Positions 1 through 40,172 are shown, numbered from the stretch's first letter. The stretch: 64,000 nt of DNA from Xylographa opegraphella (GCA_022813865.1 JALDZX010000032.1:186001-250000); one strand, 5' to 3'. Notes: generated from the sequence alone by a model not told the origin. Translations and numbers: made by a program.

Positions 1-1304
1 CCAGGACTGGTTTTTTTGCTTCATCTGCCAACATGCATTGTTCGGGGGAGTGGTATGGTCAAATGATGTTATGGTAGGATGTAAGGACCATCTCATTTGC
101 GGTTACTTGCCCATGAAGTCAGAGCTCTCTGTAGCTACTGTTCGAGGCGTGGAGATCTATTCCGAGCAAGGGAAGTTTGCTGAATTCTCATTGAGATATC
201 AGTGGAGGGAGCGAGTGGGGGGGTTGACTTAGGTTGTAATTGTTTTAGACGACGACTACGAAAGAGATTATCATTCGTGTGGCCCAGGCTTGCAGTGGCC
301 ACTTTTGGACTCCTCTTTTTGAGTAGTAGACTTTGAGATCTTGTCTGTTTTCCTTGCTTGAGTCGGGGATTTTTGGCTACCTCACGGAATTGGAGAGTGT
401 TTCGGGTCGATGGATATGCTATAACGAGGATTGAGGCCGCGATGACGAGGTAATGTTTGAACACAGGCCTGAGAGAATTCCTACACTGGGTTTATTGAGA
501 ATACACCGTCGAACGTCGACCGGTATGCGCGAGATCATTGCACGTCGAGGTGGTGTGATCTATAAGCTTGACTGTATGGCTCGTAACAAACAGCTATGGT
601 CGACCTGGTTGTCGTGTCCTGCTTTGCTGTGATACCTTGGAGATATTGAGGTTGACTTTTCGGGTTTTGATATGCGATAATACTCGGTTCTGAGCTATAA
701 TAGCTATGGTGGACAAGTACGGATCTTGGGGCTTCTCATGGGTCTCCTTGGTGCTTTCTTTACCTGTGGAATTAGAGTTCAATGAAGGGGTGGCACCCCG
801 GTTCTTCTTTTGCGTGGACACGAGCACTATCACATTCTGCGAGTTAGGGGTTACCCAGAGCTCGGTGAACCCCATGGAACTAAAAGACTCATTGAGAGGA
901 GTTACATACGAACGAAAAGAGTGGTAAAAGAAGCTCCATCAAACCTCTAATACTCGGTACGCTTCATCATACGGGATTTCGCTGATATGGAACACGAAAC
1001 GAGTGGGAGCTCTTCGATCAGAGTGATACAAGCATGTCCACGGAAGAAATAGCACCGTACGGAAGGGTACCGAGAAGCACGTTAGGGGTAAGCCTGCACA
1101 GGCAAGCATCCGAGGCTCAGAGGCGTTGCATTGGCGTTTGTTGACGGTGTTGGCAACCGCGCTTCGAATCTTCTGAAATTGTTTATTTGTGATTCACTGT
1201 GTGCGTGTCAACGGGGATTGATATCACTACTCCGTGTCAAGCTTTTGTACGCGTTGGGAACTCTGCTTTGACTACAGTTCTTTCGCTATAAAACAAGTCG
1301 TCGG

Positions 1305-1356
1305 AACAGGTCTTTACAACAGGTCTTTAAAGCAAGTCTTTAAAACAAGTCTTTCA
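1305..1356 (+). repeat. Four tandem 13-nt imperfect repeats (AACAGGTCTTTAC-like) in a probable 5' UTR
   Basis: aacaggtctttac/aacaggtctttaa/agcaagtctttaa/aacaagtctttca lie between TATAAAA (1287-1293) and the ATG at 1371. Confidence 0.85.
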
Positions 1357-1370
1357 AAGACGCCACCAAC

Positions 1371-3015
1371 ATGAATGCTCTACAGATTCGCAACCTCAAC
1401 TACACTTGCGGAGGCACTCTTAAGATCAGCATGCAAGAATTAAGAAATGATCCGAACTCTTCTTCTGCCAACCAAGCTGCAACGCACCCGCCGATTGTAA
1501 TTCGTTGGGACTGTGAGAATGGTACCCACAAGACTCAATTCCCTGCCCCCATCAACACCAATGAGAACAACACCGATGATCCACTGTGCTCCACTACTAC
1601 AGACCTCGTTGAGGAATGCACACCAACTACATTCGGATCTGCCGGTGAAGATGCTATAAATGAGCCATACTGGAAGGCAGTGGAGTTAGACAGTACGCGA
1701 TTCTCAACCAATTTCAGCCCTCACGACAGCGGTATCATAGCTGCGATCTCCCAAGTGTTGCTTCCGAGCTTCGTTAGACCCGGACAACCGCCACGCGGCT
1801 TCTGTCCGCAGCCTGATCTACGAACAGGCTATGCCTGTGTAGATCATTCAAGCCTTTCTGCCGAGCTTGACAAGTTCAATATCAATCCGGCGCCGTCTGG
1901 CAAGTGCAGAGCCCGGGTGGACACATTAAAGGGGCGGAATCAGTTTGGATTGCTCGTTGTTTGTTTGCCCTCCGCCCATCAAGGTAATGACTTATAAAAC
2001 GACCTGCGATTAAAAACGAGCTTAATAATCCATCTTAGGCGGTGAACTACAAGTTCGACACCTTGGAGACCAGATCTCCTACCATTGGAGCAACGATAAT
2101 GCGAGCACCATATCTTGGGCAGCTTTCTCCAGCGATTGTGAGTATGAGGTGTTTGAGGTCACCAGCGGGTATCGCGTGACTCTAACCTACAATCTCTACA
2201 TCCACGAGCATCTTGGTAGCGTGGTCCAGTCTTTCGCAAGTGCCGATCCGACCAAATATCCACTTTACAACAAGATAAATGAGCTGCTGCTCAATGAGGA
2301 CTGGCTGCCTGGAGGTATGTAGTGATCCGCAGTGCCCTTGTTTTCCCACTTTTTGTCTCCTATCCTGCTTACTCGAGAATACCACGGTACAGGCGGCGTC
2401 CTTGGATACTATTGCGAGCATCGCTACGCTCACACCAGCGAAGATATCGACTCTCGGCTTCCCTACGCTCTCAAGGGTCGTGATGCTCTCATATACGCCG
2501 TCTTTCGTCGAGGCTTCAGCTTGAGAGTCCACCTTCGACCCGTACTTGCTCCCGTCGAAGGCGACCCATGCTCCAGCAGCCACGTTCTTGAGAACCGAGT
2601 AGGAAGCGGGCTACATATGCTTCAGGTCACCAACGAAAAGCGCGGGGAAGATGGCTCGCTCGACGTAAGTCCCTTTGTCTCCAATGGCATTGACATATGG
2701 CTTGCTCTTCGTTGACAATTCGGCAGTATCTCGACGAAGCCTGGGAGCATGAAATTTGGCAGGATGTTACGTGGATCAACGGCGATTGGGAGGCGCCGGG
2801 CGAAGTTGCTGTCGTGTACCTTGCCGTAAGCCCCATCCGCCATGTCTAGAGAATGGGATCTGACCCCTTTCCAGCGTGGGGACCAGCCCGCGACAGCATG
2901 GCACTATAGCCATCTGGCCATGTTGATCGAGATCCCCCCGTCTGTAGCGTCTGAGTACTTCGCAGGAGAGATTCAAGTAGTGCAGAATGGAGGAGGCGAG
3001 GAGGTGCCCCAGTAA
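1371..3015 (+). CDS. Fungal 2OG-Fe(II) dioxygenase-like protein with substituted metal ligands (5 exons; possibly a pseudoenzyme or decaying gene)
   Basis: Spliced product reads AELDKFNINPAPSGKCRARVDTLKGRNQFGLLVVCLPSAHQ|GGELQVRH...ISWAAFSSDCEYEVFEVTSGYRVTLTYNLY...GGVLGYYCEHRYAHT...LPYALKGRD. This matches the family pattern HVDTPR...FGSLVVCLP...WAAFYSDCEHEV...GHRxTLTYNLY. Introns at 1984-2038, ~2315-2392, ~2665-2726, 2826-2874; stop TAA at 3013-3015. Confidence 0.8.
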
Positions 3016-3345
3016 TAGAGACGGCGTGGTGGAGGAGAGCGAGGGGGTAGATATGATCGGTATATAGTGGTAGAGCAGCGTATTTCGAGAGCTGGTGGTC
3101 ATGCTGTGATGGATGGAAAGATTAGATGTAGCGGATATAGTCGGGCTTCTTGCAAAGTCGCCCCGTCGAATTCAAGTCCAATATCCTATCTTAATTCCCG
3201 CAAGCCACCAATCCGCCCATCGTCATTCTCCGTCCCACACTTTCCAAACCCACCCACAATCCCAAAAGCAAAACATCCTCAAACCCCTTCCACCCTCAAC
3301 CGATCCTCCACCCCACCACCAAAAGAAACCATCTCACAACCCACC

Positions 3346-4406
3346 ATGCCCCCCCACCAGCGCACGCACTCCCGCCTCCTCATCCAGCGCCTCCTCATCC
3401 AGCGCCTCCTCTCCCTCCACCCCGGCACCTCGCCCTTCACGCTCATCCTCGACTCGCTCGAGCAAAGCGCCAAGCCGCTGCTGCAGGAATACATCCGCCG
3501 CGCCAACGTGCGTCCCCCCCCAACCTCCAATGCATCTCCACTAACCCCGCCCCCTCTTCTCCGCGAACAGGCCTCCCGCACCACAGTCATCTACATCACG
3601 CACAGCACGCTCTCCCCCCCGCCCGGGATCGACGTGCTGATCCCCTCGCGCCGCCAAGACGCCCCCGCTCTACAGGCCGCCATCGCGCGCGCCACTGCCT
3701 CCGCGGGCGGCCGTACGTCCCCCCGCTCCCCATCCCGCACCCCTCCCCAACTCACTAACCACGCATAGAAACCCTCCTCATCCTCCCCACCCTGCACCCG
3801 CACCTCACCCCCTCCCTCCCCACCTTCCTCTCCTCCCTCCTCACCCCCACCACCTCCCTCCTCGCCGTCCTGCACACCGACATCCCTACCCCCCCTTCCT
3901 CGCCCTACACGCCCGCCCCCCTCCCCCTCCTGCGCTACCTCGCCACCACGCTCATAACGCCACACTCGCTCCCGCACGCGCTTGCCCGCCGCGCCGCCGC
4001 CGCGCGCGCCCAGCCCGCACCGGCGTTCGGGCTCGCGGAGGAGGTCGACGGCGTGGTCGTCCCGCTCGGAGCGCACGATGCGCGCGGGCTGCTGCTGGAG
4101 GTGGAGTATAGGCGCCGGAGCGGGCGGGGGGTGGGGGGGTGGTTTTTCCTGGCGGAGGGGGGGGACGTGGGCGGGTTGGAGGAGTGGGGGGTTTGGAATG
4201 AGGGGGTGGAGGAGGGGGGGGGGGAAGGGGAAAGGGGGGAGGAGGGGACGTGGGAGGTGGGGTTGACGGCGAGGCAGCGCGCGGAGAGGGAGCTGGTCGT
4301 GTTGCCGTATACGGATGCGCAGCGGGAGGGGGGGGGGACGGGGGGGAGGATTTTGTATGATTTGGGGGTGGAGGATGATTTTGATGAGGAGGAGGATGAG
4401 ATTTGA
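3346..4406 (+). CDS. ELP5: Elongator complex subunit 5 (Elp5/Iki1), 3 exons
   Basis: N-terminal SPFTLILDSLEQSAKPLLQEYIRRA; middle PYTPAPLPLLRYLATT; C-terminal GLTARQRAERELVVLPYTDAQ...GGRILYDLGVEDDFDEEEDEI. Introns 3508-3570 and 3713-3768 keep the frame. Confidence 0.9.
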
Positions 4407-4555
4407 GGGGTGGTGGCTTTGGCTTCGTGCGAAGTCGACGTTCAGTGTAGCTGCCAGTGCAATATTATAGGAATCCAGCGCCAAGGTTTCTTTATTCTCC
4501 ACCTATTCGCCCCATTACCATACTATCCAAGAGATCCTCACCCCGCCATAGATAC

Positions 4556-6090
4556 CTATCCCAACCCCAAGCCCCCCCCGTTCACATCGGCCTCGTACCC
4601 GTCCTCGATGTCGACCGCGGCACTGACCTCGACAAAGTCCTCCAGTTCCTCGCTCACGGTCTTCAGCTTCTCCTTGACGCTAGCCACGGCCTCGAAGCCG
4701 ACGATGTGCCGCCCCGGCGGGTTCTCGTGCCCGCCCACCGCCACCAGCGCGTGGATCGTCTCCGCCAGCAGCGCGCTCTTCATCTCCGCCGGCAGGCTGG
4801 GGTGTGCGATCTCGATCTTCTCGGTGGAGTGGAGCGTCTGCGGGAGGTGGTCCGGAGGGATGGAGCCGGACGTGAAGGAGGATGATTCGTGCGGCGGGGA
4901 GGGAGGAGCGTGGGGGGAGAGGCGGTCGAGGAGGCCGCCGATGATGGAGCGCGAGAGCGGGGCGGGGTGGGCGAGGGGCGAGTAGGCGGGTAGGAGAGGC
5001 GCGGAGGAGACTTTGTTGGTGAGGACGTTGATCTCGAGGTTCGGTTGGAGGATGGTCATTTTGATGTTGAACGGGGCGATTTCGTAGGCCAGGCTCTGTG
5101 GTCGGACACGGGATGATCAGAATCAACGTCGTCCGCATGGAATGGATACAGATCTCTGCAGAAATGGAGAGGGTTCGTGAAAAGGACAGCGCGGCCGTAC
5201 ATCACAAAACCCCTCCAGCGCCCACCCCGACGCACAGTATATCCCCAACCCGGGCGTCCCCAGATGGCTCGCTGGAGGACAAAATCAGCGCCCAGTAACC
5301 CCCATAGCACGGAGCAAAGGAGCGACTCCTACTGATACCTGTCAAAACGATGATATGCCCCGCTCTCTTCTCCCGCATGGCCGGCAGCGCGGCTTTGATG
5401 ATGTTGACTGGGCTGAAGAAGTTGGTTTCGAACTGCTCGCGGATGAGGGTCAGGGTGCGAGGGCAGGCGGCGAGCTCTTCGACGGTGCCGATGACAGCTG
5501 GATCCCGCGTCAGCAAGTGGTGCGCAGAAGGGTCAACCGGGAATGGTGGAGAAGGAAGAACCTTCGCTGCTGCAGCAGAAAAGGATGTCTATCTTGCCGA
5601 AAGCCTCGACCGCTTGGGCGACTGCCGCTTGACATTGGCCGATGATGCTGCTCTCCACGTATCGAGTCAGCCATAATGTTCCTGAATGCTGCTCCCTCCT
5701 CCCTCACCAACCCTCCAACCACCCGGGGAGCAGGGACTCACACCTCCCATCCAAGCCCACAACCCTACACCTCGCCCTCCACCCCTCCAGCACATCCACC
5801 TCCTCCATCACGAAGCGCACAAACTCGTCCGCGCGCTCGCCGCCCGGCGCGGCGCCGAGGCCATTGCTGCCGGCGAAGAGGGTCTTGTGCCCATTGGCGA
5901 GCGCCCGGGCGCGCGCCACGAGCGCGAGCTCCGCCGGCTCGACGCAGAGGACGGTGTCGTCGCCGTGGGCGAGCACGGCGCGCGCGACGGCGATGCCGAG
6001 CGCGGAGGAGGCGGCGGTGAGGAACCAGGTGCGCGGGTGGGGGTGCGAGGGGAATTGGAGAGGGGGGAGGGGTGGGGAGGGGGCCGTCAT
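4556..6090 (-). CDS. Atypical short-chain dehydrogenase/reductase (SDR), multi-exon
   Basis: RTWFLTAASSALGIAVARAVL (Rossmann start), FGKIDILFCCS, QFETNFFSPVNIIKAALPAMREKRAGHII, HLGTPGLGIYCASGWALEGFCD|SLAYEIAPFNIKMTILQP. Confidence 0.85.
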
Positions 6091-7884: not shown

Positions 7885-9057
7885 TTTCTCCCCCCCACCC
7901 CCACCCACACCCACACCCGCCACCCGACTCTTCTTCCTCTTCTTCCCCGCCGTCCCCGGCGTCACCGGCGTCTTCTCCCCGGCCTTCCCTCTCCTCACCT
8001 CCAGCGGCAGCCCCTCCGTCTTGATCGGCGGCGGAATGGGCGCCTGAGCCGGCGTCGGCGTCGCCCCCGCTGCAACTACCGCCGGTTTCACCACCCCGGC
8101 ACCCTTGCCCGCCACCTGCGCCTGCGCAGCCGCGTCTCTCGACTTTTGCAGGATGAACGAGCCCGGCTCGCCGACGAGGGGGTTCTCGTCCATGTACTCG
8201 GCGCCGTACGTGGTCGAGAGGAGGAAGGAGTCGGCGAGCAGGCTGGAGGCGCGGACGTCCGGGACGGTGGAGGGCGCGTCCGAGAGCTGGGACGCCTTGG
8301 TGCTGCGGAGGGAGAGCTGCGTGTCTGGGAGGGGGCTGCTGTCCTTGCTGGTCTGCGTTGCTTGCAGGCTGCTGGTCGCCGTAGATACGGGCTTCGCCAC
8401 GGGGGGAAGGTAGGCGTAGCCGAGCGAGGGGGTGAAGACGGGCAGGGCGGACGCGGTGGCAAGGAATTTCGTCAGCGCCGTCACGGTAGATAGCTACCGC
8501 CCATTAACACCTCCCGCCGCACAACATATCCCCCACCCAGCGTAGCATCCAACTCACCAGCCGCCCCCCCAGGATATTCCCTACCGACGGGGCCATATAC
8601 ACGCTCTCCCCAACCACAAAGTAGGCGCTCAAGGGGGCAATCTCGTCCTCCAGCCCCGGCCTCTTCCGCCGAACCTGCTTCCGGACAACCCACACCCCGC
8701 TATTCTGCACATTCCGGCCCCCATCCGACGGGTCGTGCGTGACCATGAACTCCAGGCCCGCCATCGTCCGCAGCCGGCTCTCGAACGCCTCCCGCGTCGC
8801 GACGATGTGGATCATGCTGGGGTTGTACTGCGCCTGGCTCGAGAGGATGGCGTTGTTGGACGTGCGGTCGAAGTAGGGCGATTCGTAGAAGTAGGGCAGG
8901 ACTGGGGGTAGGGGGGGGGGTTGTTAGATATGTGCGTTATTGTTTGGGGGGGGGAGAGGACTTTACCGGTGTTCGTGTGGATGCCACCCATGTTTTGGGC
9001 TATGGGGGACGACCGCCATTGGATTTCGTCGAGCAGGGGCTCCTCGACGGTGGTCAT
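7882..9057 (-). CDS. MED6: Mediator subunit 6, 3 exons
   Basis: PLLDEIQWRSS...IHTNT|VLPYFYESPYFDRTSNNA...LRTMAGLEFMV...WVVRKQ...YFVVGESVYMAPSV...YMDENPLVGEPGSF. Confidence 0.93.
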
Positions 9058-9489
9058 GCTCCCGAATTGTGGCGTTGAGTACAAGCCAGCATTCGAGTCT
9101 CAGCGGCAGTGGATCATGAACCTGTCGCTTCCGAATGTATTCCCAAGTCGTGTGAGCAATGATGTTAGATAGGGCTGATCCATTACCTACCCGGTGTTGA
9201 AAGGCCGCCTACCTTGCACTTAAAACATAGTCTGAGAAGCACTCGAGCACTGTAATTGCAGCACAACATCAATATGCCACAGGAATGCAGATATAATCCA
9301 TAAATCATGGAACCGTTATCCATTACCAAACAACACGATATCCAAATAACCAGTGTAGCATGCACGTTGACCGGACCCCATCCTCCAATATCGCCAAGTG
9401 CCCAAATTCCGCCCAAAGTGCCAAATATACACCCCCTGAACCCTTCTTTCCGGAAAAACACCGCAGCACACTCCACCCCTACCATTTCA

Positions 9490-11005
9490 TTACCCATACC
9501 TTCCATGTTCCAGCTCGTGAGGGCCGTTAAAGCGCGGGCCCATACCGACGCCCTCCACCCCCATCTCATAGATCCCATCGTGCGCTTGATATTGACGTTC
9601 GTTATGATCCAGCTCATGGCTCCGCTGTCCGTCCCCATTCAGCGGGGGACTGACGGCTTCGACTTCATCTACATGATGCAGCGGCGCTCCTTTGTATATG
9701 TCGCCGTCCACCTCGCTGATGCTTGGGTGCTGCGCATATGGACTATGCGTGGATTGCGATGACACGGTTGCCGCGCTGAAGCGGGTCTTGACTGGGGACT
9801 GTTCAGAGCCGATTGGCGTTCGGTTTACGGACGAAAATGGGGGAGGTGCGTCGAAGGCCTTGCCACCTCCGTAAGTTGACGTTTCTGTGAGCCCCTGATC
9901 TTGCTGGGGAACCGAGGCGTATGGACCGCTGGCTCTTGGCTTCTCGATCGGAGGGAAGTGGTGCTCCACCGGAAGAGGTTGGCCGCGAGGGCGTCGTGTC
10001 CGGTTTCGTCGCTTGATACAACAGAAGGCAACTAGGCCGGCGATAAGGAGGAGAACAGCTCCACCGCCTCCGACAGCGATGCCAATGATGGCTCCCATGG
10101 AAAGACCACTTTGAGATGTTGCGACGGTCGAAGGTGTAGGGCTTGCGGAAGTGGTTTCTGGAGAAGGGCTACTCTGACTTGCGGATGCCCCAGGAGTGCT
10201 ATGAGCCGAACTTTGAGCCGAACTTTGAGCCGTGTCGGTGGTTCCACTGGCAGCAGCAGAGACGGTGACCGTGGCCATCACGGTCATCAACGTCGGAAGC
10301 GTCTCGGTAGGAGCGGTGATTGTGACTGGTCCAGCTGTATCGGCCAAAGTTTGCCCTCGCGAAGCGTAGTAGTCGGCCAAGAACTCTACAGTAAAAGTTT
10401 GATCCGGTAAAGACTGGCAGTCGTAGAGGCGAGTGCCCGAGTCGAAGTTGTAAGTGCCACACCACGGAGTGTCGGAATTGTAACTACGGCAATTGTCAGC
10501 CATTGACGGGTATTCGGTATCCAGAAGACACTACCATTTCAAGATATTGTAGTTTGCCTGACAATCCGCGTCACAGAGGTTATAAATCTGGGAACAGGTT
10601 GTGAAGAGATTGGTGCAGAGAGAAATGGGTCCAGCATCGCAGCATCCAAGGACCGCTCCCGAATAGACGCAAGTCAAAGATGCCGCACATGATAGAGGGT
10701 CAGCTGCAGAAGCTGTTAGTGGAAGCTCGTGGCTGTCGTTCGGATCAGGGTGGGGACGACATACTTCCCGCACCATCTACAAATCCACACCAATTGTTCG
10801 GTGGCGGAAAAGGCACTTCGCCCTGGCGCACGAGCAGTTCCTTCGGGATGCCATTGAGACCCGGAGCTTCTGTGGGCCGTAGCGAGATGCCTATCTGTGC
10901 CATGAGGCCCGTCGGTGTTGGGTCTGGGCCAAGCCATGGTGTAGCCAGGACTCGGTGGCTCAACGCGAGGATGGCGCTCAATACAAAAATATGCTGGTTC
11001 TTCAT
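9490..11005 (-). CDS. Single-pass type I membrane protein: signal peptide, Cys-rich ectodomain, Ser/Thr stalk, one TM helix, cytosolic tail (cell-surface sensor-like)
   Basis: MKNQHIFVLSAILALSHRVLA signal; WCGFVDG|...SCAASLTC...GCC...C...TTC...CDADC...LKC|...WCGTY...YDC; S/T-rich stalk; TM GAIIGIAVGGGGAVLLLIAGLVAFCCI followed by KRRNR. Confidence 0.8.
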
Positions 11006-31919: not shown

Positions 31920-32431
31920 AGGGGGTGTACGAGGGCGTTTGGTTGAAGGTGGTCGGATGCGAGTGAGCTGGGTATCTTTCGTTTGTTAAGCCATGCATAC
32001 TGTTTCAATCTCATCTCATTGGCGAAGGTTGGCACCTTTCATCCGGTCTCAGTGGTAAATACTCGTCAGCTTGCATTCAGTCCCATCATGCTATAAATCC
32101 CATGCTACTACACTCTGGCAAGCACAGCGTCAAGAAACGTCCTTGCTCCTCGTGCGGTCGATGCTGCAGCTGGCTGAATCAAGCACTCCATGACGGATGC
32201 CTTGTACACGCCCCAAGCCCTCTTATCACCAACGCTTATCCCTGAACTCTTCCACGCTGCTGCGAAGAACCTCTGTGGCTGAAAGAAGTTTGAGAGGACC
32301 GACAACCCCAAGGCTCTCGACTGCCTATTGCCCAGTACAACCTCCCACTCATGACGCCAATAACCGCCCATCTCCACACCTCAAAGCTCCAATTCCCAGC
32401 TGACATCCCACCACCGCCCCCTCCCCCCTCT

Positions 32432-32948
32432 TCACCGCCCCTCCTCCCCCCTCCGCCAATGCCCCCCCTCCTCATAATCCTCCCGTATGCCCAACGCCTT
32501 CCTCAACCGCTCACTCTCCTCCACCTTCGCCGCCGCCCGCTCATGCACCTGATACGCCTTCAACGCCTTCCCGTTCCCCTTCCCCACCCCCCCCTCCCTC
32601 TCCATCACCCGCTGCAACTCCTCCCTCAGCGCCCCCGTCCGCGCCTCGATCTCCTCCTCCAAAACCCTACACAGCACCGTCAACATCAACAATCCCCCCC
32701 CCACCACACGAGCAGAAAACTCACCCCTCGTCCTCCAGCTTGTCCCGCAGCTCAAACACCTGGACCTCCACCGCGCGCGCGCGGTCGTGCGCCAGGATGG
32801 CCGCGTCCGCTTGCCGGGGTCGGTGGGGCGCGGCGTTGGCGCGCTCGTCGCTCGGCTGCTCGCGCGGTCGGAGGTGGGAGAGGTTGCGTTGCACGTAGCC
32901 GGAGGTGCCGCTCCCGCGTGGGGTGGAGAGGCCGACGTTGGAGGACAT
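32432..32948 (-). CDS. CWC21: Splicing factor Cwc21, 2 exons
   Basis: MSSNVGLSTPRGSGTSGYVQRNL...HDRARAVEVQVFELRDKLEDEG|...YQVHERAAAK..ESERLRKALGI..DYEEGGHW. Confidence 0.95.
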
Positions 32949-33500
32949 GGGGTTTGTGGGTGTTGGGGGTGCTGTTGGGTGGGTGAGATGGGTGTAGGAG
33001 GAACGGTTTGGTGGTGGTGGTGGCAGTGGTGGTGATGGTTTGGTGGTGGTGGTGATGGTGATGGTTGCATGGCTAGCTGGAGGGGCCCATGCTGGAATTT
33101 TGTAAAATACAGGGTTCGCGCTAGGTTTAAGCGTTTTAGCGTCTTTTTACTCTCAAGCGGCGGACCGCGTTTGTCGATATTTACTCGGGCCGATTCGGCT
33201 TCTTACGGGTCCGCGGGTCGGGTGTTCACGCTAGGGCCGTACGTAAGTTACGGCTGAAGCACGGTGGGAGTTGTGACAGGGCATTATTTATCACTTCTTT
33301 CTCCATGGGCTACTGCTCCTGTGATGCTCTGGGTGGTAGTCTTGACGAACCCTGTACAGTGACTTGTCCTCTCGACAAGGAAGTTTTGATCGTACCATTA
33401 TCATATCAAGGAGTGCGCATCAATACACAAATACACCGTGTCGCTATGCTTTTATCTACCAGCTGGAAAGAAACAAAACTACCCACAAGACCCTCATCCT

Positions 33501-34315
33501 TCAAACACACTGCTCAACCAGGATATTCAGCCCGTACTTAGTCCCCTTCTTGACCATCATCCCCGCGTGCCTGCTCCGCTCCTCCAGCGTCCCGTTCTTA
33601 TACATGTTCATCCAAAAGACGCCGTTCCCCTTCACCGGCCGGAGCATCGTCCCCACGCTGTCCTTGTGCTTCGGCCGCCGGAACTTCCGCTCGTCCACCG
33701 GCATGTCCGCGTGCGGAGGGTCCAGGTACGGGAAGTACGTCTCGCCGCCCTCGGCCACGTCGGAGAGGAAGATGAAGAAGCTGGCGACCCGGTTGCACAG
33801 TTTGCCCTCGGAGTTGGGTTCGGGTTCTTGCAGGTAGTCCCAGTGAAGCGGGTGCTGCTCGCCCTCCTGCGTGCGCCCGATCTGGAGCAGTTCGAGGCCC
33901 TCGGAGGGGATGAAGCCGACGAGTGAGTCGGCGCGGCGGACGATGCAGTTGGTGACTTCGTCGGGCTTGTCTTCGACGATGATGTAGCCTGACGTGCGGC
34001 GTCGGTCTTTCTCTTCAGGTTCTATGATTTCTGGAGCATATGTCCAATTGGAGCTAATCAAGCAGATGAGTCCTGACGTGCAGAGATGAACCGTATAGGA
34101 GGAGGTGCTTACTTGAAGGATAACAGATGATTGATTTCGTACGGGCTGAGGAAGTCGTTCAGGTAGATCATCAAAGGCTCTGTAGAAAGTATCTCGGGTC
34201 TGTAGTGGAGATTGCAAACATATCCGCTGGAGTTAAGCACGCTGCTTGCACTCTGGAAGGGCCATAACTTGATGCTCAAAGCACCCACGACAGCAGCGAC
34301 AGTAGACAAAGACAT
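33501..34315 (-). CDS. Prolyl 4-hydroxylase alpha-type 2OG-Fe(II) dioxygenase with an N-terminal hydrophobic segment, 2 exons
   Basis: ILSTEPLMIYLNDFLSPYEINHLL, RRTS, LQIGR...HWD (HxD), NRVASFFIFLSDVAEGGETYFP, PVKGNGVFW, RHAG (distal His), GTKYGLN (2OG-binding Lys); intron 34054-34112. Confidence 0.9.
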
Positions 34316-35180
34316 TTCAACGATGGATGGAAGTGCTCTGGATGAGAACAGTGGGAGAAGAGGTAAAAGAGAAGGGAGCAGACAATATCCTGAATTCGCA
34401 AGTACCCATCGACATAGGATTCGATCTAGACTCGAACCACGGATACTTCTCCAAACATCACAGCCACTGCCATCAACACTTGCTTGTTGGTGGAGAAGGA
34501 AATTGGTCAACAGCGGAGACGCCCTGCTAGGAGAGCTCGACGTCCAAGCAACGAGCCAATGATGCACGCCTCCCCGTGCAGAAACTGTGGAGGAGCACTA
34601 ACGCAGGAGCACGTTCTGCTGCACTGCATATCCAGCATGGCACGGAGCGTTGGAGGCGTGTGGAACGTCGACGAGCTTAGAAGAGCACCAGCGGCGGGAC
34701 CTTCAAAGCGCCGGACTCCAAAGAGCACGGTTGCCCGCTAGCGTCGCACCTCCTGCGGCTACAAGGTTTGAAGCTCGAGGGAGCTAGCCCGATTCAGTGC
34801 TGAAACAGCCCGAGCTAAAGTCTGACGCTGATCTTGGCGGCGCTTGGTGCGGCAAAGAAAAGCTCCGACAGCCCCGTGCGCTCGTCTGCAGGGTCACGCG
34901 AGTACGCTAGGCCAAGGTGAGCAAGACGGATATTCAACGCTCAATCTCCTCCACCATTCGTCTCCTGCTAGTCTATCGAGAGATTGTCCCGAAATCCATT
35001 AGTGATACATTCTCGACCGGTCTTGTAAGACTTGCCCATTTCGATACCAACATGCAAGAACGGCTCAGCGACCACTTGATGTCAGCACAACAAATGGGAA
35101 TAGACACCAGCGATGCCGGCAGAACTTCAGCACAGCCGATGTCGAGTCTCCGGATCATGGGAAGCCGTCTCTGGAGAGGA

Positions 35181-35187
35181 TATAAAG
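35181..35187 (+). promoter_or_regulatory. Probable TATA box of the peptide precursor gene
   Basis: TATAAAG about 150 nt upstream of ATG 35337, followed by a C/A-rich leader ending TCAACATG. Confidence 0.55.
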
Positions 35188-35336
35188 ACCTTCTGTCTCC
35201 AAGTTCTTCACAGCATCATCAACATCATCCTGAATAGTCAACCAACAATCTCTGCGAGCCATCCACCATCCACGCTTCCTCGTCTTTCAATAGCTATCAA
35301 TTTCAATCAACTTCCACTTCCACATCCACTCTCAAC

Positions 35337-35787
35337 ATGAAGCTCACTCTCATCGCTGCCTTTGCCGGCATCGTCGCCATGGCTGCTGCCTACGCCGAGC
35401 CCAACCCATACGCCTTTGCCGAAGCGGAGCCCTACGCCGAACCAGAGGCCTACGCCGAGGCAGACGTCCTGGCCGGCTACGAGGAAGGCTTCCTCGCCGC
35501 TCGTGACCTCTACGCAAGTCAGTATCACAGCTTGCACAAAAATTTCAAAGCCTAACCATGCGCAGGACACGCGAGAAACGACCCTCGCCCCGTGCGCCAG
35601 GGCAGCCCACCGGCCAAGCCCAAGGGCCGACACCACAGACGTGAGTTGGCCCGACAAAAGTAGTAAACCTCGGAATTTCTGACAGTGCGCAGGAGAGGCC
35701 AAGAATGACCCTCGCCCGGTTCGCCAGGGTAGCCCGCCCGCGAAGCCCAAGGGACGACACCACAGGCGCCAGTATTATGAATACTAG
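35337..35787 (+). CDS. Secreted Kex2-processed repeat peptide precursor (KEP), 116 aa, 3 exons
   Basis: Exons 35337-35517, 35566-35640, 35693-35787; introns GTCAGT..CTAAC..CAG and GTGAGT..CTGAC..CAG. Product: MKLTLIAAFAGIVAMAAA-YAEPNPYAFAEAEPYAEPEAYAEA-DVLAGYEEGFLAARDLYAR-HARNDPRPVRQGSPPAKPKGRHH-RR-EAKNDPRPVRQGSPPAKPKGRHH-RR-QYYEY. Confidence 0.9.
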
Positions 35788-36712
35788 AGGTAAGTCAATG
35801 ACGCCGTCCCAACCTGTCTTTGCAGTCGATTAAACTGACACCGCTCGTAGCAGTGCAGCGCAACGCGCGGAGTTCGCTTGAGTGGAATGCGGACGGAACA
35901 CAGCCGAGTTGGGAGCAAAGTACAGACTGTAAAAGAGCTGGTAGCGGAGTCGCTGGCGTGTCAAGCGGGGTGTTGAATTGGATCGGACTTGCCGGAGTAT
36001 CTCGAGCGATGTTTTCTTTGTCTTAGGATCTGTCACTCTTTTGGTCTGGACTCCCACACGGAGTCGCAGAATATCCGATCCAATGTACGACCAAAAGCAT
36101 ATAAAACTGACCACGACTTGCATAACGTGAAAATAATGTGAATGCCCCTGATAGGTAGGTGTGAATAGCATACTTAGATGTCACGACAGTACAGAAACAC
36201 GACTCGGCTAGACCGACTAGCACCGATGGGAAATACAAGTTGTTATGAAGATCAAATCACCAGATCATGTCTCCCCTACACCTCAATGCCCCTCACGCAA
36301 CGCCATTTTACATTTCGCGAGACCGGCCCGAGCCACGGTGTACCATAACACGTCTGTACACCGTTCCTGGTCCGGCGTCCGAAAGGAAACAACTGGCTGC
36401 CTGCGATCGCGAACCAGCTGCCTTTGGGTCATGTGGAGGAACGGAACAGTTACTCGTAGAACAATCTCCGTAGGCTCCGAGCGTGCCTCCTTACATACCC
36501 CGGCGAAGGGAGCTGGACATGACAAAAACCTACTTTCATCTCTAACTGCGCGTAGCATTTCAGGAGCGAAGCTGAGGGACACGACTGTAAGGACAATGGA
36601 TGGAGTGTATCTGATGAGATACTGGTTCTTTGCGACCTGACTTCTCCTCGGCACTGAAGACTCTATACATATTCCACATTTTAGCCAGGTACTATATATC
36701 GCAGCCTATTCC

Positions 36713-38154
36713 TCACGGTCCAGCAGTCCGACTCCCGAAAAAGACAACCTGTACGGTAATGTCGTCCCTGCAACGTGGTGTTAGTGGTCCCTTTGGATAC
36801 GAGTCCGTTCATTCAACAAGAGCTCACCGAATATTCCTCGAAAACGGAGCCCGGAAGGTGAGCATTCCGCGAAACAGCTCTTCGTCGGCCCCTCCCAGCG
36901 CATTGCGAGCCAGGTGTGTTGCAGCGTTGTCGTCGACAACGATGATGGACTCGGCGTGGACTTCCCACGCCGTCATTTGCGATCTTGGTGGCACATCGGA
37001 GCCTATTCGCTGCGAGTATGGACTTTGCTTTGGAGCGTCCGCTTTGCTAGTCTCAGGGCTAGATTTCTTGTCCAGCCATTTACCGACCAGTAGGACTGCC
37101 TGTTCGCTGTTCATGCGGTTCCACAGGCCGTCGCTCGCTAGAATCATGAAGTCCTTGCCGGGTTGCACCTCAGTCATGCTCACGACAGGTTTAGCGGTCA
37201 AGTATGGAGGCGTCAACGAAGCCGAACGAGGGCTCCTCGCAAAATAGTTGTCTTTCATCAGTTTCTGTATTTCGGTACTATACTTCCATCGCCCGTTGCC
37301 AAAAGCCCGCGTGATATACATACCAAGGACGGTGTTGTCTTCAATCATATCCGGCTCGTTTGGATGCTCTGCGTGTAAACGGGATGCCTCGGATTCGTTA
37401 TCCAGATTCTGGTCGGCTGAAAGGGCGATCGTTTGCCATTTACCGTCTTCCTTTCGCTGGCCAAGGACTGCGCGAGAGTCTCCGACACATGCTACGCGGA
37501 GGAGGCAAGAGAATGGGTCATAGATGCCAAGGAGGGCACAAGATCCCGCATACGTTAATGTCAGGTCCGATAGAGCTTCGGATAGAGGTAAAGATGCTTT
37601 CACAGCAGCTGCTCCAGCGTTCATTACATCATCGTCCAGTCGTTCGAATGCAATCTCAATCGCCTTGCTGATAGCGTCTTCAGATGTTTCGGACGATGGA
37701 GTCTGAAATGCGCTTTTCAGCTCGCGAGATACATACTCCATCAGCGAAACCCGTAGCTTGGTTGACATTTCCCAGCCTCTATCCGAGTCATAAGCGGATT
37801 GGATGATTCAATCCCTCTGGCGTTTGGGACTTACTCGTGTCCGTCGAACACCCCCCAGAACATGATCGTTCTCTCCTTCTCGCCTTCATGGCCCGGAATA
37901 GTCACGGCACCGTGGATCAGATCATCCTCGGTCGGGAAATTACTCGGAACCCGAACAACATCGTACCGGGAGACACCGAGCTCTTCAGGCGGCTCAATGC
38001 TTACTTCTTCATCTCGTAATTTGGCTTCCGCATCACTTTGAGCCAGGGACACGGTTGGGCGGAAGTCCTTGTCGAACTTTGCAATGAGCGGAAAAGTGAC
38101 GGGGGTTGATGATGACGTCATGGGTGAATGATGATTCGTGACTGTCTTGTGCAT
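36713..38154 (-). CDS. PP2C protein phosphatase, Ptc5/pyruvate dehydrogenase phosphatase-like; start codon uncertain
   Basis: PSNFPTEDD, FWGVFDGH|GW, GSCALL, VACVGDSRAVLG, TRAFG, PPYLTAKP, FMILASDGLW, DDNAATHLARNALGG, R|DDITVQVVFF; stop at 36713-36715. Confidence 0.88.
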
Positions 38155-38586
38155 GAATGATCTTACTCCGTACAACAATAGCGAAGCCGCAGCACCAGGC
38201 CTGGAGAGACGGCTTGGAAGAGGTTGATTTGTAAAAACAAGAGACTGCGCTAGAGATAATAATAAGCATAAAGTGGTTGGACGAGAGCTCTTGCTTCAAC
38301 GGCGGATGTGGCACAGGAACTCGAGGGCTATGTGTTGGCTGTGCCTCTTTTATCCATATTTGCTCGGTTCCTGCAGAAGACATATGCAATCATACGGCGT
38401 ATATGACACGAGCATGAAGCTTGGACACTACTGACAGCTGGCTTACATGAGCCACTTGCGCCCAATCTCCCCCGTGCCTCACGGATCTACCTTGACTGTC
38501 TGGAAGCTCTTGCGTTCAGGCTTGATATTGGAGGCGTGTCGGTGCAAATAACCCCAACGCCGGACTTACGTGAGACTAAATACTTC

Positions 38587-39649
38587 TTAACCGCCCGGAC
38601 ATTGAATCTTTGATACCCATCCGTTCCCCAGAATCTCAGACCACCCAGCACGATCCTCCGGCCGGGGCTCAAGCATCCTTCCGATGATATGACTTGACTC
38701 TGGTGGCAATTGCCGGAGTAGACTCCCTACGATCGCGCTGATGACTTTGGTATCTTCCGGCGTTGCAATGGTGCGACACTTCTGATTACTGGATTGCGGC
38801 GTCCCTCGACGAGCGTCACGCATTGCCTGCCACGAAAATAATCCGAAGTGGTCATCCAAGGCATCGCACGGGACTGGCATCGATTTCCAGGGAATGTCTG
38901 GCAAGAGCATTCGACAGAAGCTCATGGCCAGCGCCCAGATATCCACTGGCCGCGGATCGTACTTCGATACCTCGTAGACCTCCGGCGGGAGATAAGTAAG
39001 GGCTCCCACAGGACCTTCTCTCGGAATTAGACACAAATTAAAGCTTAGCTGGGAGAGAAATCATACCCCATCGCTTCTCTATGATGCTATCTACTCCTCG
39101 AAACTGATAGGAAGTGCCAAAGTCGATAATCTTCGCTGAGCCATTCGAATCTAGCATAACATTGTTTACCTTGAGGTCGTGGTGTGCATACCCCTCGCTG
39201 TGCATGTAAGAGACACCATCAAGCAATTGACGAAAGATGCACATCGCTTGAGGGACCGTCACTCCTTGCTCGCTTTCAACGAGGCCGTTCAGGCTTTGGG
39301 GATAGAATGGCATGACTATAAACCACGTCCGGTTTTCGTAAATAAGGTCCAATGCTTCGATGATGTTATCGTGTCGTAAAGACGTGGCAATTCTGAACTC
39401 ATCCCGAACACTCGCAGCAGTGTCGTTGAGGTCTTCCGTTTCATCCTCATTCACATAATCATCCTCGGAATCAAACTCTTTGACCGCGAATTTCGCCGAA
39501 TCCTCTCGGCGTTGATACAAGTGGACCAATCCACCTGCACCTTCACCAAGTAGTTTGACGGGCTCGCCATATTGCCGCAGGCTCGAACCGTGAAATGCGG
39601 AAGACGCAGACACGAGGGTACAACAGAACGACAGAAGGAACACACGCAT
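38587..39649 (-). CDS. Ser/Thr kinase resembling the Npr/Hal family, reduced to the kinase domain, with an apparent signal peptide; 2 exons
   Basis: MRVFLLSFCCTLVSASSA, then LGEGAGGLV, FAVKEF, LRHDNII, HHDLKVNN, KIIDFG, G|PVGALTYLPPE, YDPRPVDIWA, IIGRMLEPRPEDR. Confidence 0.88.
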
Positions 39650-40172
39650 GTTGGTCATTTAAAGGACAAAACCCTAAGCAGAAATCTATTGACAGAAGCA
39701 AGCAGTCCTATACTCGGCAAACATGGAACAACTGGCCAGGAAGAGGCATCATACTTCAAGTCGGAGAGAAGTTATAAGGTAGTAAGCTTAAGATACGGTA
39801 AATGGATTCCTCTACCGTGCCGTACCGTAGATGGTGTTGGAAACAAGGCGCAGGGATTATTCGTTCAAGTTACCTCGACTGGGCTGTGGAGTCAATCGGC
39901 CCATTCCCAAATATCATGCTTTGCAATTGGACCAACCACCTGTCTCAAGAGGGGATTTATTCCTCGCGGATAGTATACAATGACTGATTACCGAACATCT
40001 GCATGTGGCAACCGCCGTACTTGTAAACAGCTACAGTTGTACCATGGCGGCACGGAAGAATGTTTCAACGATCGGCTCAATCTGCGTCATCTGTTGAACA
40101 GGATAACTTCACTCCTTCACGTTGGCTATAAGAAGTAGACTGCAATAGGAGTCTGACCAGATACTATAGAAT

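What the first reader, a model, noticed from the sequence alone, without database searches (positions are those of the whole stretch)
33501..39649. Candidate peptide-tailoring cluster: Kex2 repeat precursor, divergent prolyl 4-hydroxylase, signal-peptide kinase and PP2C
Seen: four non-housekeeping genes sit between CWC21 and CDC123. The precursor and the P4H are head-to-head across about 1 kb. The P4H and the kinase both begin with hydrophobic segments. The 20-aa core has five Pro and a single Ser in an R-x-x-S-P-P context. Established: P4H enzymes hydroxylate peptidyl Pro in the secretory pathway; many basophilic kinases prefer Arg at -3; known fungal Kex2-precursor RiPPs (dikaritins) use DUF3328 oxidases, and none is present here. 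Inference: a RiPP-like system making a hydroxyprolinated and possibly phosphorylated secreted peptide. I know of no described KEP + P4H + kinase cluster. The P4H-precursor link is the strongest; the PP2C may be an unrelated neighbour.
Basis: partly seen in the sequence, partly recalled or inferred. Interest (0 to 1): 0.9.

Follow-up and report, generated by a model that had tools for sequence, protein, structure and literature searches.

The report
Lichen-fungus secreted proline-rich peptide precursor
A small gene of a lichen fungus encodes a secreted precursor that should release two copies of a short, basic, proline-rich peptide; it sits beside a proline hydroxylase, a phosphatase and a kinase, but nothing yet shows that these neighbours modify it.

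Summary
The window is Xylographa opegraphella: two annotated proteins are reproduced letter for letter. All four genes exist at the stated coordinates.

The precursor (116 aa, three exons) is real. Its two 21-codon core copies differ by 9 synonymous and 0 non-synonymous bases. It carries a yeast alpha-factor or apidaecin type processing signature:
- a signal peptide;
- 12 consecutive X-Ala/X-Pro dipeptides;
- LxxR or RR/KR sites, each followed by an X-Ala/X-Pro dipeptide.

It has two repeats, not the three or more that the published KEP pipeline requires.

The neighbours:
- a genuine secretory-type prolyl 4-hydroxylase;
- a PP2C closest to pyruvate dehydrogenase phosphatase;
- an active CAMK/HAL-like kinase with a conserved hydrophobic N-terminus.

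The gene order holds in six Xylographa species, which is all within one genus and so says little. The precursor family was not found outside the genus. Homologues of the hydroxylase and kinase were. The proposed phospho-serine is replaced in two of four orthologues.

Verdict: a lineage-specific secreted peptide precursor. A tailoring cluster is not shown. A hydroxylase-peptide link stays possible (about 0.2), and kinase or PP2C involvement is unlikely.

The parts
35337..35787 (+). Prepropeptide gene, 116 aa. Exons are 35337-35517, 35566-35640 and 35693-35787, with phase-1 introns of 48 and 52 nt. Layout: signal peptide (aa 1-18), acidic pro-region (aa 19-61, net -8) and two basic core copies (aa 62-86 and 87-111, net +7 and +6), then a QYYEY tail.
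   Evidence: The spliced translation equals NCBI protein P0001 (MMC26_004895).
35577..35639 (+). Core copy 1 (NDPRPVRQGSPPAKPKGRHHR), in exon 2. It is preceded by LYAR-HA.
   Evidence: It differs from copy 2 by 9 synonymous and 0 non-synonymous bases.
35704..35766 (+). Core copy 2, with the same 21 residues, in exon 3. It is preceded by RR-EA-K and followed by RR-QYYEY and the stop.
   Evidence: The duplicated unit includes the 3' end of the preceding intron.
35391..35462 (+). Run of 12 X-Ala/X-Pro dipeptides (YA EP NP YA FA EA EP YA EP EA YA EA), directly after the predicted signal peptide.
   Evidence: The run is 15 dipeptides long if the end of the signal peptide is counted. 0 of 100,000 composition-preserving shuffles reach the observed run. 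It is conserved in 5 of 6 family members and shortened to 10 in P0005.
33501..34315 (-). Prolyl 4-hydroxylase-family 2OG/Fe(II) oxygenase, 251 aa. Exons are 34315-34113 and 34053-33501. It has a hydrophobic N-terminus.
   Evidence: Pfam 2OG-FeII_Oxy_3, E 5.5e-5, 24.5 bits against a cut-off of 27, for exon 2 alone. All 9 profile hits in the PDB are P4Hs, best E 8.2e-17. H139, D141, H231 and K241 are invariant in 11 of 11 sequences. The best fold match is algal P4H bound to (Ser-Pro)5, E 7.5e-10 (the model is weak, mean pLDDT 61.9).
34316..35336 (.). Divergent intergenic region of 1,021 bp between the P4H and the precursor. A TATAAA lies at 35181-35186, about 150 bp upstream of the precursor ATG.
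   Evidence: Read from the sequence. The 60-aa ORF at 34559-34738 has no Pfam match.
36713..38154 (-). PP2C phosphatase, 441 aa in my model. Exons are 38154-37835, 37778-36828 and 36767-36713. It is of the pyruvate dehydrogenase phosphatase-like type.
   Evidence: Pfam PP2C, E 2.3e-26. Best PDB matches are PDP1, E 5.7e-33, against 2e-5 or weaker for other PP2Cs. The model is and was not checked against an annotated protein.
38587..39649 (-). Ser/Thr protein kinase, 336 aa. Exons are 39649-39067 and 39014-38587. An N-terminal hydrophobic segment lies directly before the kinase domain. An in-frame ATG three codons upstream is at 39658.
   Evidence: The translation equals P0019. Pfam Pkinase, E 4.9e-30. 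Best PDB matches are GCN2, Chk1, MARK, CaMKK2 and Snf1. Catalytic residues are conserved and HRD reads HHD.

Best explanation
The core of the finding is a Xylographa-specific prepropeptide gene that works like the yeast alpha-factor or honeybee apidaecin precursors.

Proposed route:
1. The signal peptide takes the protein into the ER.
2. In the Golgi, a Kex2-type protease cuts after LYAR (an LxxR site) and after each RR (KR in X. carneopallida).
3. A Ste13-type dipeptidyl aminopeptidase removes the following X-Ala/X-Pro dipeptide (HA or EA). It can also chew through the 12 X-Ala/X-Pro dipeptides at the N-terminus.
4. A Kex1-type carboxypeptidase trims the C-terminal basic pair.

The products would be two copies of a 21-residue cationic peptide with five prolines, (R/K)NDPRPVRQGSPPAKPKGRHH. 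The conserved acidic pro-region (net -8) offsets their charge (+6 and +7) until processing. The peptide acts outside the cell. I think a host-defence or competition role like the insect proline-rich peptides, or a signalling role, is most likely.

The three enzyme genes beside it are best read as neighbours in a block of conserved gene order, not as a demonstrated tailoring cluster. They are a secretory P4H, a PDP-like PP2C and a CAMK/HAL-like kinase.

Shown here: the gene, its constraint, the processing motifs, the enzyme families and the gene order within the genus. Inferred: every processing step, secretion and the role of the peptide.
For: - Identity of the window. The spliced model equals annotated protein P0001, and the kinase model equals P0019.
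- Constraint. The two core copies show 9 synonymous and 0 non-synonymous differences over 21 codons. The same 20-mer occurs in 4 of 4 copies in X. opegraphella and X. carneopallida.
- Processing sites. They are kept through equivalent changes: RR-EA becomes KR-DA, and LYAR-HA becomes LYAR-NA, LYAR-NP or LFAR-EA.
- Dipeptide run. There are 12 consecutive X-Ala/X-Pro dipeptides, and 0 of 100,000 shuffles reach this.
- Hydrophobic N-terminus. Kyte-Doolittle mean is 2.35 over 15 residues.
- Charge balance. Net charges are -8, +7 and +6.
- Literature, passages only. Kex2 cuts at KR/RR and Ste13 at XA/XP, and alpha-factor precursors carry 1 to 16 repeats (PMC6339444). The apidaecin polyprotein uses an RREAEPEAEP spacer (PMC11549390). 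Most KEP types are unique at genus level (PMC7329392).
- Family range. There were 5 hits among 11 candidates in the word-based search: 4 named Xylographa and 1 unnamed. Of 5 hits in 1.84 billion representatives, only 2 are real relatives, and both are Xylographa.
- Context. The surrounding genes are housekeeping: Trs120, a DEAH helicase, an enoyl-CoA hydratase, CDC123 and others.
- Against a kinase link. The Ser is V in X. soralifera and K in X. trunciseda.
- Against a PP2C link. Its best match is PDP1.
Against: - Adjacency. The P4H sits head-to-head with the precursor in 5 of 5 species where a precursor was retrieved.
- Spacing. The P4H and the kinase lie three accession numbers apart in 6 of 6 species.
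- Secretory signs on both enzymes. The P4H has 4 conserved Cys (three in 11 of 11; one in 8 of 8 non-gap) and an N-G-T sequon in 11 of 11. The kinase has an N-x-S/T sequon in 8 of 8 and 5 conserved Cys.
- Conserved prolines. Three prolines of the core are invariant in the four well-modelled orthologues.
- Leader versus core. The leader is more conserved than the core, as in RiPP precursors.
- A residual phospho-acceptor. Each orthologue still has exactly one Ser or Thr in a basic context, although at different positions.
- A possible deeper link. A distant P4H homologue (P0017, 57% identity) and a distant kinase homologue (P0025, 51%) both report a longest contig of 7,576 bases. They may therefore be neighbours in another taxon.
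- No direct data. I saw no transcript or peptide data. In the genome paper 'RNA-seq' occurs 0 times (passages only).
Confidence: 0.6

Rival explanations
1. Two-gene module. The adjacent lumenal P4H hydroxylates one or more of the conserved prolines of the peptide in the ER or Golgi before or during Kex2 processing. This would resemble how plant Golgi P4Hs mature CEP- or CLE-type peptides. The conserved pro-region might serve as a recognition element. The kinase and the PP2C are unrelated.
For: - The two genes are divergent and 1,021 bp apart.
- They are adjacent in 5 of 5 species.
- The P4H catalytic set is intact in 11 of 11 sequences.
- All 9 PDB profile hits are peptidyl-prolyl 4-hydroxylases.
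- The best fold match is algal P4H bound to (Ser-Pro)5.
- The P4H has a hydrophobic N-terminus, 4 conserved Cys and a conserved sequon.
- Pro in R-P-V, x-P-[AV] and K-P-K is invariant.
- The leader is more conserved than the core.
Against: - All the adjacency evidence is within one genus, where gene order is expected to be kept anyway.
- Small P4Hs with signal peptides are common in Ascomycota. The nearest Atlas clusters have 110, 96 and 51 members. FsP4H1 is a 275-aa secreted P4H with widespread homologues (PMC13581073, passages).
- P4H homologues at 53-63% identity exist among unnamed records, while no precursor homologue is detectable outside Xylographa. The enzyme may therefore predate the peptide. 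Short peptides can also diverge beyond detection.
- No co-expression or mass data exist.
Confidence: 0.2
2. Full first-reader model. This is a four-gene RiPP-like cluster in which the P4H hydroxylates the secreted peptide, the signal-peptide kinase phosphorylates it and the PP2C reverses that.
For: - The same four-gene spacing is seen in 6 of 6 species.
- The kinase N-terminal hydrophobic segment is present in 6 of 8 homologues, including the distant P0026.
- The kinase has a conserved sequon and conserved Cys.
- The kinase catalytic residues are intact, and CAMK-type relatives are its best PDB matches.
- The Ser has Arg at -3 in X. opegraphella and X. carneopallida.
Against: - The Ser is not conserved: it is V or K in 2 of 4 orthologues.
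- The PP2C is PDP-like and shows no hydrophobic N-terminus in my model.
- The 17-18-residue hydrophobic start of the kinase could equally be an N-terminal membrane anchor that leaves the kinase in the cytosol. No predictor of signal peptides or topology was available.
- An automatic Atlas label among the top hits is 'HAL protein kinase', a cytosolic family. This is a lead only.
- No RiPP hallmark genes were seen in the 38 pieces scanned.
Confidence: 0.04
3. The precursor is not a functional gene. It would be a chance ORF or an annotation artefact in a GC-rich intergenic region.
For: - The models are ab initio. I saw no transcript support (passages only).
- A 155-aa stop-to-stop frame overlaps it on the opposite strand.
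- It has no Pfam family.
Against: - The copies differ by 9 synonymous and 0 non-synonymous bases.
- 40 N-terminal positions are invariant across five family members.
- The processing motifs are conserved.
- GT-AG introns keep the reading frame.
- A TATA box lies about 150 bp upstream.
Confidence: 0.03

Closest known systems
Yeast alpha-factor precursors (MFalpha1 and MFalpha2) and Ascomycota alpha-pheromone precursors
   Same: [quoted passage not shown] Each copy is bounded by KR/RR followed by X-Ala/X-Pro dipeptides. MFalpha2 has two copies (PMC6339444, passages).
   Different: The core has no Trp or Cys, whereas the passages describe pheromone motifs with two conserved Cys and a PCW end. The core is strongly basic. 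The first site is LxxR rather than dibasic. Each copy lies in its own exon.
KEX2-processed repeat proteins (KEPs) as defined by Le Marquer 2019 and Umemura 2020
   Same: It is a secreted repeat precursor with Kex2 sites and a Ste13 signature. It is restricted to one genus, as most KEP types are.
   Different: It has only 2 repeats and gives 3 KR/RR fragments. The pipeline requires at least 3 repeats and at least 4 fragments.
Apidaecin-type insect polyproteins (proline-rich antimicrobial peptides)
   Same: Both are pre-pro-polyproteins carrying repeated Pro/Arg-rich peptides of 15-34 aa, separated by RR plus EA/EP dipeptides (PMC11549390, passages). The core here is 25% Pro and net positive.
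   Different: There is no homology. The conserved C-terminal PRPPHPRL motif of that family is absent. Antibacterial activity is untested, and the source is a fungus.
Plant and nematode hydroxyprolinated peptide hormones (CEP), matured by P4Hs
   Same: Both are short Pro-rich peptides released at basic sites. CEPs carry hydroxyproline at positions 4 and 11. The nematode R. reniformis has one intron per domain and RR after internal domains (PMC5103176, passages).
   Different: Similarity of the core to four published CEP domains is within chance. Shuffles reaching the observed identity were 4,520, 558 and 1,933 of 20,000. The C-terminal G-x-G-H is not in register.
Dikaritin-type fungal RiPP clusters (ustiloxin, phomopsin, asperipin-2a)
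   Same: Both use a Kex2-processed repeat precursor with a signal peptide.
   Different: No DUF3328/UstY, tyrosinase or methyltransferase was found in the pieces scanned. The core has no Tyr.
Chlamydomonas/plant type P4H and the fungal secreted P4H FsP4H1
   Same: The size (about 250 aa), the hydrophobic N-terminus, the HxD...H plus Lys set and the fold all agree.
   Different: The substrate is unknown. The roles of fungal P4Hs are described as largely uncharacterised (PMC13581073, passage).

Membership tests
KEP (operational definition of Le Marquer et al. 2019) | N-terminal signal peptide and no transmembrane protein | tested here: inconclusive
   The hydrophobic N-terminus (KD 2.35) is followed by A-A-A. 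No SignalP or TMHMM was available.
KEP (operational definition of Le Marquer et al. 2019) | At least 3 repeats, and at least 4 fragments after KR/RR cleavage | tested here: not met
   There are two repeats and two RR sites, giving 3 fragments. The criterion is taken from PMC6339444 passages.
KEP (operational definition of Le Marquer et al. 2019) | Repeats bounded by KR/RR, optionally with a Ste13 XA/XP signature | tested here: met
   RR-EA in X. opegraphella and KR-DA in X. carneopallida. LYAR is followed by HA, NA, NP or EA.
Dikaritin RiPP cluster | DUF3328/UstY oxidase gene near the precursor | tested here: not met
   No such Pfam hit occurred in the 38 translated pieces. Only ORFs of 150 aa or more, plus the exons of the finding, were scanned, so a split small gene could have been missed.
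Ascomycota alpha-pheromone | Trp/Cys-containing core (two conserved Cys and a PCW-type end, per PMC6339444 passages) | tested here: not met
   The core has no Trp and no Cys.
Prolyl 4-hydroxylase (P4Hc, 2OG/Fe(II) oxygenase) | Sequence membership | tested here: met
   All 9 PDB profile hits are P4Hs, best E 8.2e-17. Pfam PF13640 scores 24.5 bits for exon 2 alone, below the cut-off of 27.
Prolyl 4-hydroxylase (P4Hc, 2OG/Fe(II) oxygenase) | Fe-binding His-x-Asp...His and the 2OG-binding Lys | tested here: met
   H139, D141, H231 and K241 are invariant in 11 of 11. They align with the catalytic region of B. anthracis P4H. The assignment of roles to these residues is from recall.
Prolyl 4-hydroxylase (P4Hc, 2OG/Fe(II) oxygenase) | Double-stranded beta-helix fold like that of solved P4Hs | tested here: met
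   The top 30 or so Foldseek matches are P4Hs, best E 7.5e-10, TM 0.5-0.66. The model is weak: mean pLDDT 61.9, pTM 0.64.
Prolyl 4-hydroxylase (P4Hc, 2OG/Fe(II) oxygenase) | Hydroxylates peptidyl proline, and this peptide in particular | not testable with these tools
An enzyme assay is needed.
Eukaryotic protein kinase (active Ser/Thr kinase) | Gly-loop, VAIK Lys, alphaC Glu, catalytic Asp/Asn, DFG and APE Glu | tested here: met
   K57, E84, D158, K160, N163, D176-F177-G178 and E209 are invariant in 8 of 8. GEGAGG is present. HRD reads HHD, HQD or HLD. Pfam Pkinase, E 4.9e-30.
Secretory-pathway (lumenal) kinase | Cleavable signal peptide and a lumenal location | tested here: inconclusive
   A hydrophobic N-terminus occurs in 6 of 8, the N-x-S/T sequon in 8 of 8, and there are 5 conserved Cys. 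The topology could not be predicted. An N-terminal anchor with a cytosolic kinase domain is equally possible.
PP2C, pyruvate dehydrogenase phosphatase-like branch | PP2C domain with closest similarity to PDP | tested here: met
   Pfam PP2C, E 2.3e-26. PDP1 scores E 5.7e-33 against 2e-5 or weaker for the other 32 hits.
Proline-rich antimicrobial peptide (apidaecin type II) | Conserved C-terminal PRPPHPRL motif (PMC11549390) | tested here: not met
   The core ends in KGRHH.
CEP peptide hormone | 15-aa domain with Pro4, Pro11 and a C-terminal G-x-G-H | tested here: not met
   The best ungapped identity is 5-6 of 15. Shuffles reach it in 558 to 4,520 of 20,000 trials.

The most novel reading that the evidence does not exclude
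The divergently transcribed lumenal P4H hydroxylates conserved prolines of this alpha-factor-like peptide. The neighbouring kinase may truly be a secretory-pathway enzyme and may add phosphate. That would be the first fungal secreted peptide matured by a dedicated P4H, a fungal counterpart of plant hydroxyprolinated peptide hormones. It would also give the first substrate for the widespread small fungal P4Hs, whose function is still unknown.
Probability: 0.15. Interest if true: 0.75.

Novelty: new member of a known kind. Interest (0 to 1): 0.35.

Why it matters
Lichen fungi are poorly explored for secreted peptides. The one survey of lichen RiPP clusters that I read (passages only) found no repeat precursors (PMC12048977). 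Here is a clearly constrained, genus-specific, cationic proline-rich peptide precursor with textbook processing signals. It is cheap to synthesise and to test against bacteria, algal partners or other fungi.

The adjacent P4H offers a concrete candidate substrate for a fungal enzyme family whose roles are called largely uncharacterised (PMC13581073). The kinase with a conserved signal-like start deserves a localisation test in its own right.

If none of the links hold, this is an ordinary lineage-specific secreted peptide inside a block of conserved gene order.

Tried and rejected
1. **Complex prediction.** I tried P4H catalytic domain (A1, residues 36-252) with the pro-peptide (A6, residues 19-88). 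The queue was full, and then the tool was declared unavailable. Nothing was folded, so there is no result either way.
2. **CEP-hormone mimicry.** The similarity to four published CEP domains is within chance.
3. **Retrotransposon relic.** The intergenic ORF 34559-34738 looked like a zinc-knuckle relic, but it has no Pfam match. I dropped the idea.
4. **Distant precursor relatives.** Three of the 5 exhaustive-search hits (P0033-P0035, 671-1183 aa) match only profile positions 44-66, six or seven times each. They are repeat proteins whose unit resembles the pro-region helix. I treat them as convergent short-motif matches, not as relatives.
5. **Alpha-pheromone identity.** Rejected because the core has no Trp or Cys.
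6. **Synteny outside Xylographa.** This could not be done. The possible shared 7,576-base contig of P0017 and P0025 stayed unchecked.
7. **Literature.** A search for secreted fungal kinases gave nothing relevant in the 12 papers listed.
8. **Sequences left out of the alignments.** A1 used 11 of the 13 P4H hits; the fragments P0011 and P0018 were dropped. A2 used 8 of the 11 kinase hits; P0027-P0029, at 29-35% identity, were dropped.

Full report
**Origin and gene models.** The window comes from the lichen-forming fungus Xylographa opegraphella (Lecanoromycetes, Baeomycetales), or from an identical strain. Splicing the window at GT-AG introns reproduces two NCBI proteins of that species letter for letter. 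These are the 116-aa hypothetical protein MMC26_004895 (P0001) and the 336-aa 'serine/threonine protein kinase' (P0019). The finding's coordinates run exactly from the hydroxylase stop (33501) to the annotated kinase start (39649). Four genes lie there:
- a P4H-like oxygenase on the minus strand (251 aa, two exons);
- the precursor on the plus strand (three exons);
- a PP2C on the minus strand (441 aa, my own model);
- the kinase on the minus strand (two exons).

On the left is a CWC21-like splicing factor. On the right is CDC123 (Pfam D123, E 3e-103). Across the 64 kb the other recognisable genes are housekeeping: a DUF3684/sacsin-like protein, Trs120, a DEAH helicase, an enoyl-CoA hydratase, a phosphodiesterase-family protein, a Na/Ca exchanger, Laa1/HEATR5 and TACO1. 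None of the 38 translated pieces matched a RiPP or secondary-metabolite hallmark.

**The precursor.** The protein reads: signal-like N-terminus (aa 1-18), acidic pro-region (aa 19-61, net -8), HARNDPRPVRQGSPPAKPKGRHHRR (net +7), EAKNDPRPVRQGSPPAKPKGRHHRR (net +6), then QYYEY.
- There are only two copies, and each sits in its own exon behind a phase-1 intron. The duplicated DNA unit includes the 3' end of the intron.
- Over the 21 shared codons the copies differ at 9 synonymous and 0 non-synonymous positions. With 15.7 synonymous of 63 sites, the chance of that under neutrality is about 4e-6. The peptide sequence itself is therefore under purifying selection. This settles that the gene is real.
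- Directly after the signal peptide come 12 consecutive X-Ala/X-Pro dipeptides. No composition-preserving shuffle out of 100,000 reaches the observed run.

**Orthologues.** The word-based search gave 5 hits among 11 candidates. Four are named, from X. opegraphella, X. soralifera, X. trunciseda and X. pallens, and one is unnamed. A cluster look-up added X. carneopallida (P0040, 116 aa, two copies).
- In the four well-modelled proteins the leader is nearly invariant. The processing sites change only to equivalents: RR-EA becomes KR-DA, and LYAR-HA becomes LYAR-NA, LYAR-NP or LFAR-EA.
- The core keeps R-P-V-R-x-G-x-x-P-x-K-P-K, but the Ser of R-Q-G-S-P-P is Val in X. soralifera and Lys in X. trunciseda. 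Those two have instead a single Thr near the C-terminus.
- The X. soralifera and X. trunciseda models end in K-R-E. In the window, R-E is exactly what reading through the C|GTGAGT donor gives. Their repeat number is therefore uncertain.
- The P0002 and P0005 models are evidently mis-spliced after the leader.
- An exhaustive profile search of 1.84 billion representative proteins gave 5 hits at E up to 0.001. Two stand for Xylographa clusters. Three are long repeat proteins that match only the 23-residue helix of the pro-region six or seven times, and I regard those as convergent. The family was thus not found outside the genus.

**Processing logic.** According to passages of PMC6339444:
- Kex2 cuts after KR/RR;
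- Kex1 removes the basic pair;
- Ste13 removes XA/XP dipeptides;
- alpha-factor precursors carry from 1 to 16 repeats.

The same paper's KEP pipeline needs at least three repeats and four KR/RR fragments, which this protein does not provide. The honeybee apidaecin polyprotein uses the spacer RREAEPEAEP between Pro/Arg-rich peptides (PMC11549390, passages). That is the closest analogy in architecture and peptide chemistry, without homology. The predicted products are two 21-mers, (R/K)NDPRPVRQGSPPAKPKGRHH. All processing steps are inferred.

**The hydroxylase.**
- Exon 2 alone gives Pfam 2OG-FeII_Oxy_3 at E 5.5e-5, just under the curated cut-off.
- A profile of 11 homologues hits nine PDB sequences, and all are prolyl 4-hydroxylases: B. 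anthracis, human C-P4H-II, Chlamydomonas, human P4H-TM and PBCV-1. The best E is 8.2e-17.
- H139, D141, H231 and K241 are invariant in 11 of 11.
- An AlphaFold model is weak (mean pLDDT 61.9, pTM 0.64). Its best fold matches are again P4Hs, first the algal enzyme bound to (Ser-Pro)5 (E 7.5e-10).
- The N-terminus is hydrophobic. Four Cys are conserved (three in 11 of 11; C34 in 8 of 8 non-gap), as is an N-G-T sequon (11 of 11). This fits a lumenal enzyme.
- Such small fungal P4Hs are common. The nearest Atlas clusters are Ascomycota P4H-domain proteins with 110, 96 and 51 members.
- A 275-aa Fusarium P4H with a working signal peptide has been described, with the remark that fungal P4H roles remain largely uncharacterised (PMC13581073, passages).
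- The NCBI model of X. opegraphella fuses this gene to CWC21 (P0030, 458 aa). Seven other species have 251-253-aa proteins ending as in my model.

**The kinase.**
- Pfam Pkinase gives E 4.9e-30. The best solved relatives are GCN2, Chk1, MARK, CaMKK2, CIPK and Snf1.
- All catalytic residues are invariant in 8 of 8, with HRD replaced by HHD, HQD or HLD.
- A 17-18-residue hydrophobic segment directly precedes the kinase domain in 6 of 8 homologues. These include P0026 at 52% identity. One model is truncated and one lacks the segment.
- An N-x-S/T sequon is kept in 8 of 8 with a variable middle residue, and five Cys are conserved.
- These features fit a lumenal kinase. An uncleaved N-terminal anchor with a cytosolic domain is not excluded.
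- One of the top Atlas neighbours is automatically labelled 'HAL protein kinase', a cytosolic fungal family. This is a lead only. My impression that the C-lobe motif resembles that family is recalled, not tested.

**The PP2C.** It matches pyruvate dehydrogenase phosphatase 1 at E 5.7e-33, against 2e-5 or weaker for all other PP2Cs. It has the usual PP2C motifs in the translation. It shows no hydrophobic start in my model.

**Linkage.** Locus tags and accession numbers serve here as a proxy for gene order. This proxy agrees with the order in the window.
- The P4H and the precursor are adjacent in 5 of 5 species where a precursor was retrieved: X. opegraphella, X. soralifera, X. trunciseda, X. 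carneopallida and X. pallens.
- The P4H and the kinase are three accession numbers apart in 6 of 6 species where both numbers were seen: X. opegraphella, X. soralifera, X. trunciseda, X. carneopallida, X. bjoerkii and X. vitiligo.
- No precursor was retrieved for X. bjoerkii, X. vitiligo or X. parallela. The first two still have two annotated genes between the P4H and the kinase.
- All of this lies within one genus, with P4H identity of 82-91%. Conserved order is the default expectation there, so it does not show a functional cluster.
- Outside the named species, P4H homologues at 53-63% identity and kinase homologues at 51-52% exist as unnamed records. One P4H (P0017) and one kinase (P0025) report the same longest-contig length of 7,576 bases. 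This hints at a deeper P4H-kinase linkage, but I could not fetch the contig.
- P0014 (longest contig 150,673 bases) and P0026 (21,816 bases) have no partner with a matching contig length among the hits.

**What is in print.**
- A search combining 'Kex2-processed repeat', 'fungi' and 'prolyl 4-hydroxylase' listed no paper holding both the first and the third term among the 15 shown.
- A search on P4H, RiPP, hydroxyproline and fungal listed nothing on a fungal P4H-tailored peptide among the 12 shown.
- 'Hydroxylase' occurs 0 times in Umemura 2020.
- 'Hydroxylase', 'kinase' and 'Xylographa' each occur 0 times in the lichen RiPP survey.
- For all these papers I saw only the listing or the passages. 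Supplementary tables were not opened and could list this protein.

**Verdict.** The well-supported object is a lineage-specific, alpha-factor-like precursor of a cationic proline-rich peptide. The tailoring-cluster interpretation is not supported by any test I could run. The P4H-peptide link remains a reasonable, cheap-to-test hypothesis (about 0.2). The kinase link is weakened by the non-conserved Ser and the unresolved topology, and the PP2C looks unrelated. I rate it a new member of a known kind, with interest 0.35.

Noticed in passing
window 32432-34315 (minus strand): The NCBI model of X. opegraphella (P0030, 458 aa, 'RNA-splicing factor') fuses the P4H to the downstream CWC21-like gene by splicing out the P4H stop. 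Seven other Xylographa species have separate 251-253-aa P4H proteins. This is probably an annotation artefact.
   Followed up: partly
window 38587-39649 (minus strand): This is a canonical, catalytically complete kinase with a conserved signal-like N-terminus, an N-x-S/T sequon kept in 8 of 8 homologues and five conserved Cys. It may be a secretory-pathway or membrane-anchored kinase, which would be unusual for this kinase group.
   Followed up: partly
window 35518-35692: Each peptide repeat lies in its own exon behind a phase-1 intron. The duplicated unit includes the branch and acceptor end of the intron, so the repeat grew by exon duplication. A paper on nematode CEP effectors notes a similar 'one intron per domain' layout with RR after internal domains (PMC5103176, passages).
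   Followed up: partly
P0001 residues 44-66; P0033, P0034 and P0035: The most conserved part of the pro-region (VLAGYEEGFLAARDLYAR...) matches the repeat unit of three long unnamed repeat proteins six or seven times each (E 2e-13 to 4e-9). I judge this a convergent helical motif, but the resemblance is striking for 23 residues.
   Followed up: partly
P0003 and P0004 (X. soralifera and X. trunciseda precursors): Both models end in K-R-E. In the window, R-E is what read-through of the exon-2 donor C|GTGAGT gives. These models may lack one or more further repeat exons.
   Followed up: no
window 35181-35186: A TATAAA box lies about 150 bp upstream of the precursor start codon.
   Followed up: no
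window 2001-6000 and 8001-10000: These GC-rich stretches (0.585-0.642, against about 0.49 elsewhere) carry many overlapping long open frames on both strands. The four frames I scanned there had no Pfam match.
   Followed up: no
window 32294-33070: The CWC21-like gene overlaps very Pro-, Gly- and His-rich low-complexity frames on both strands. It also contains a TGG-type microsatellite at 33009-33066.
   Followed up: no
P0017 and P0025 (unnamed records): A P4H homologue at 57% identity and a kinase homologue at 51% both report a longest contig of 7,576 bases. They may be neighbours in a taxon outside the named Xylographa species.
   Followed up: no
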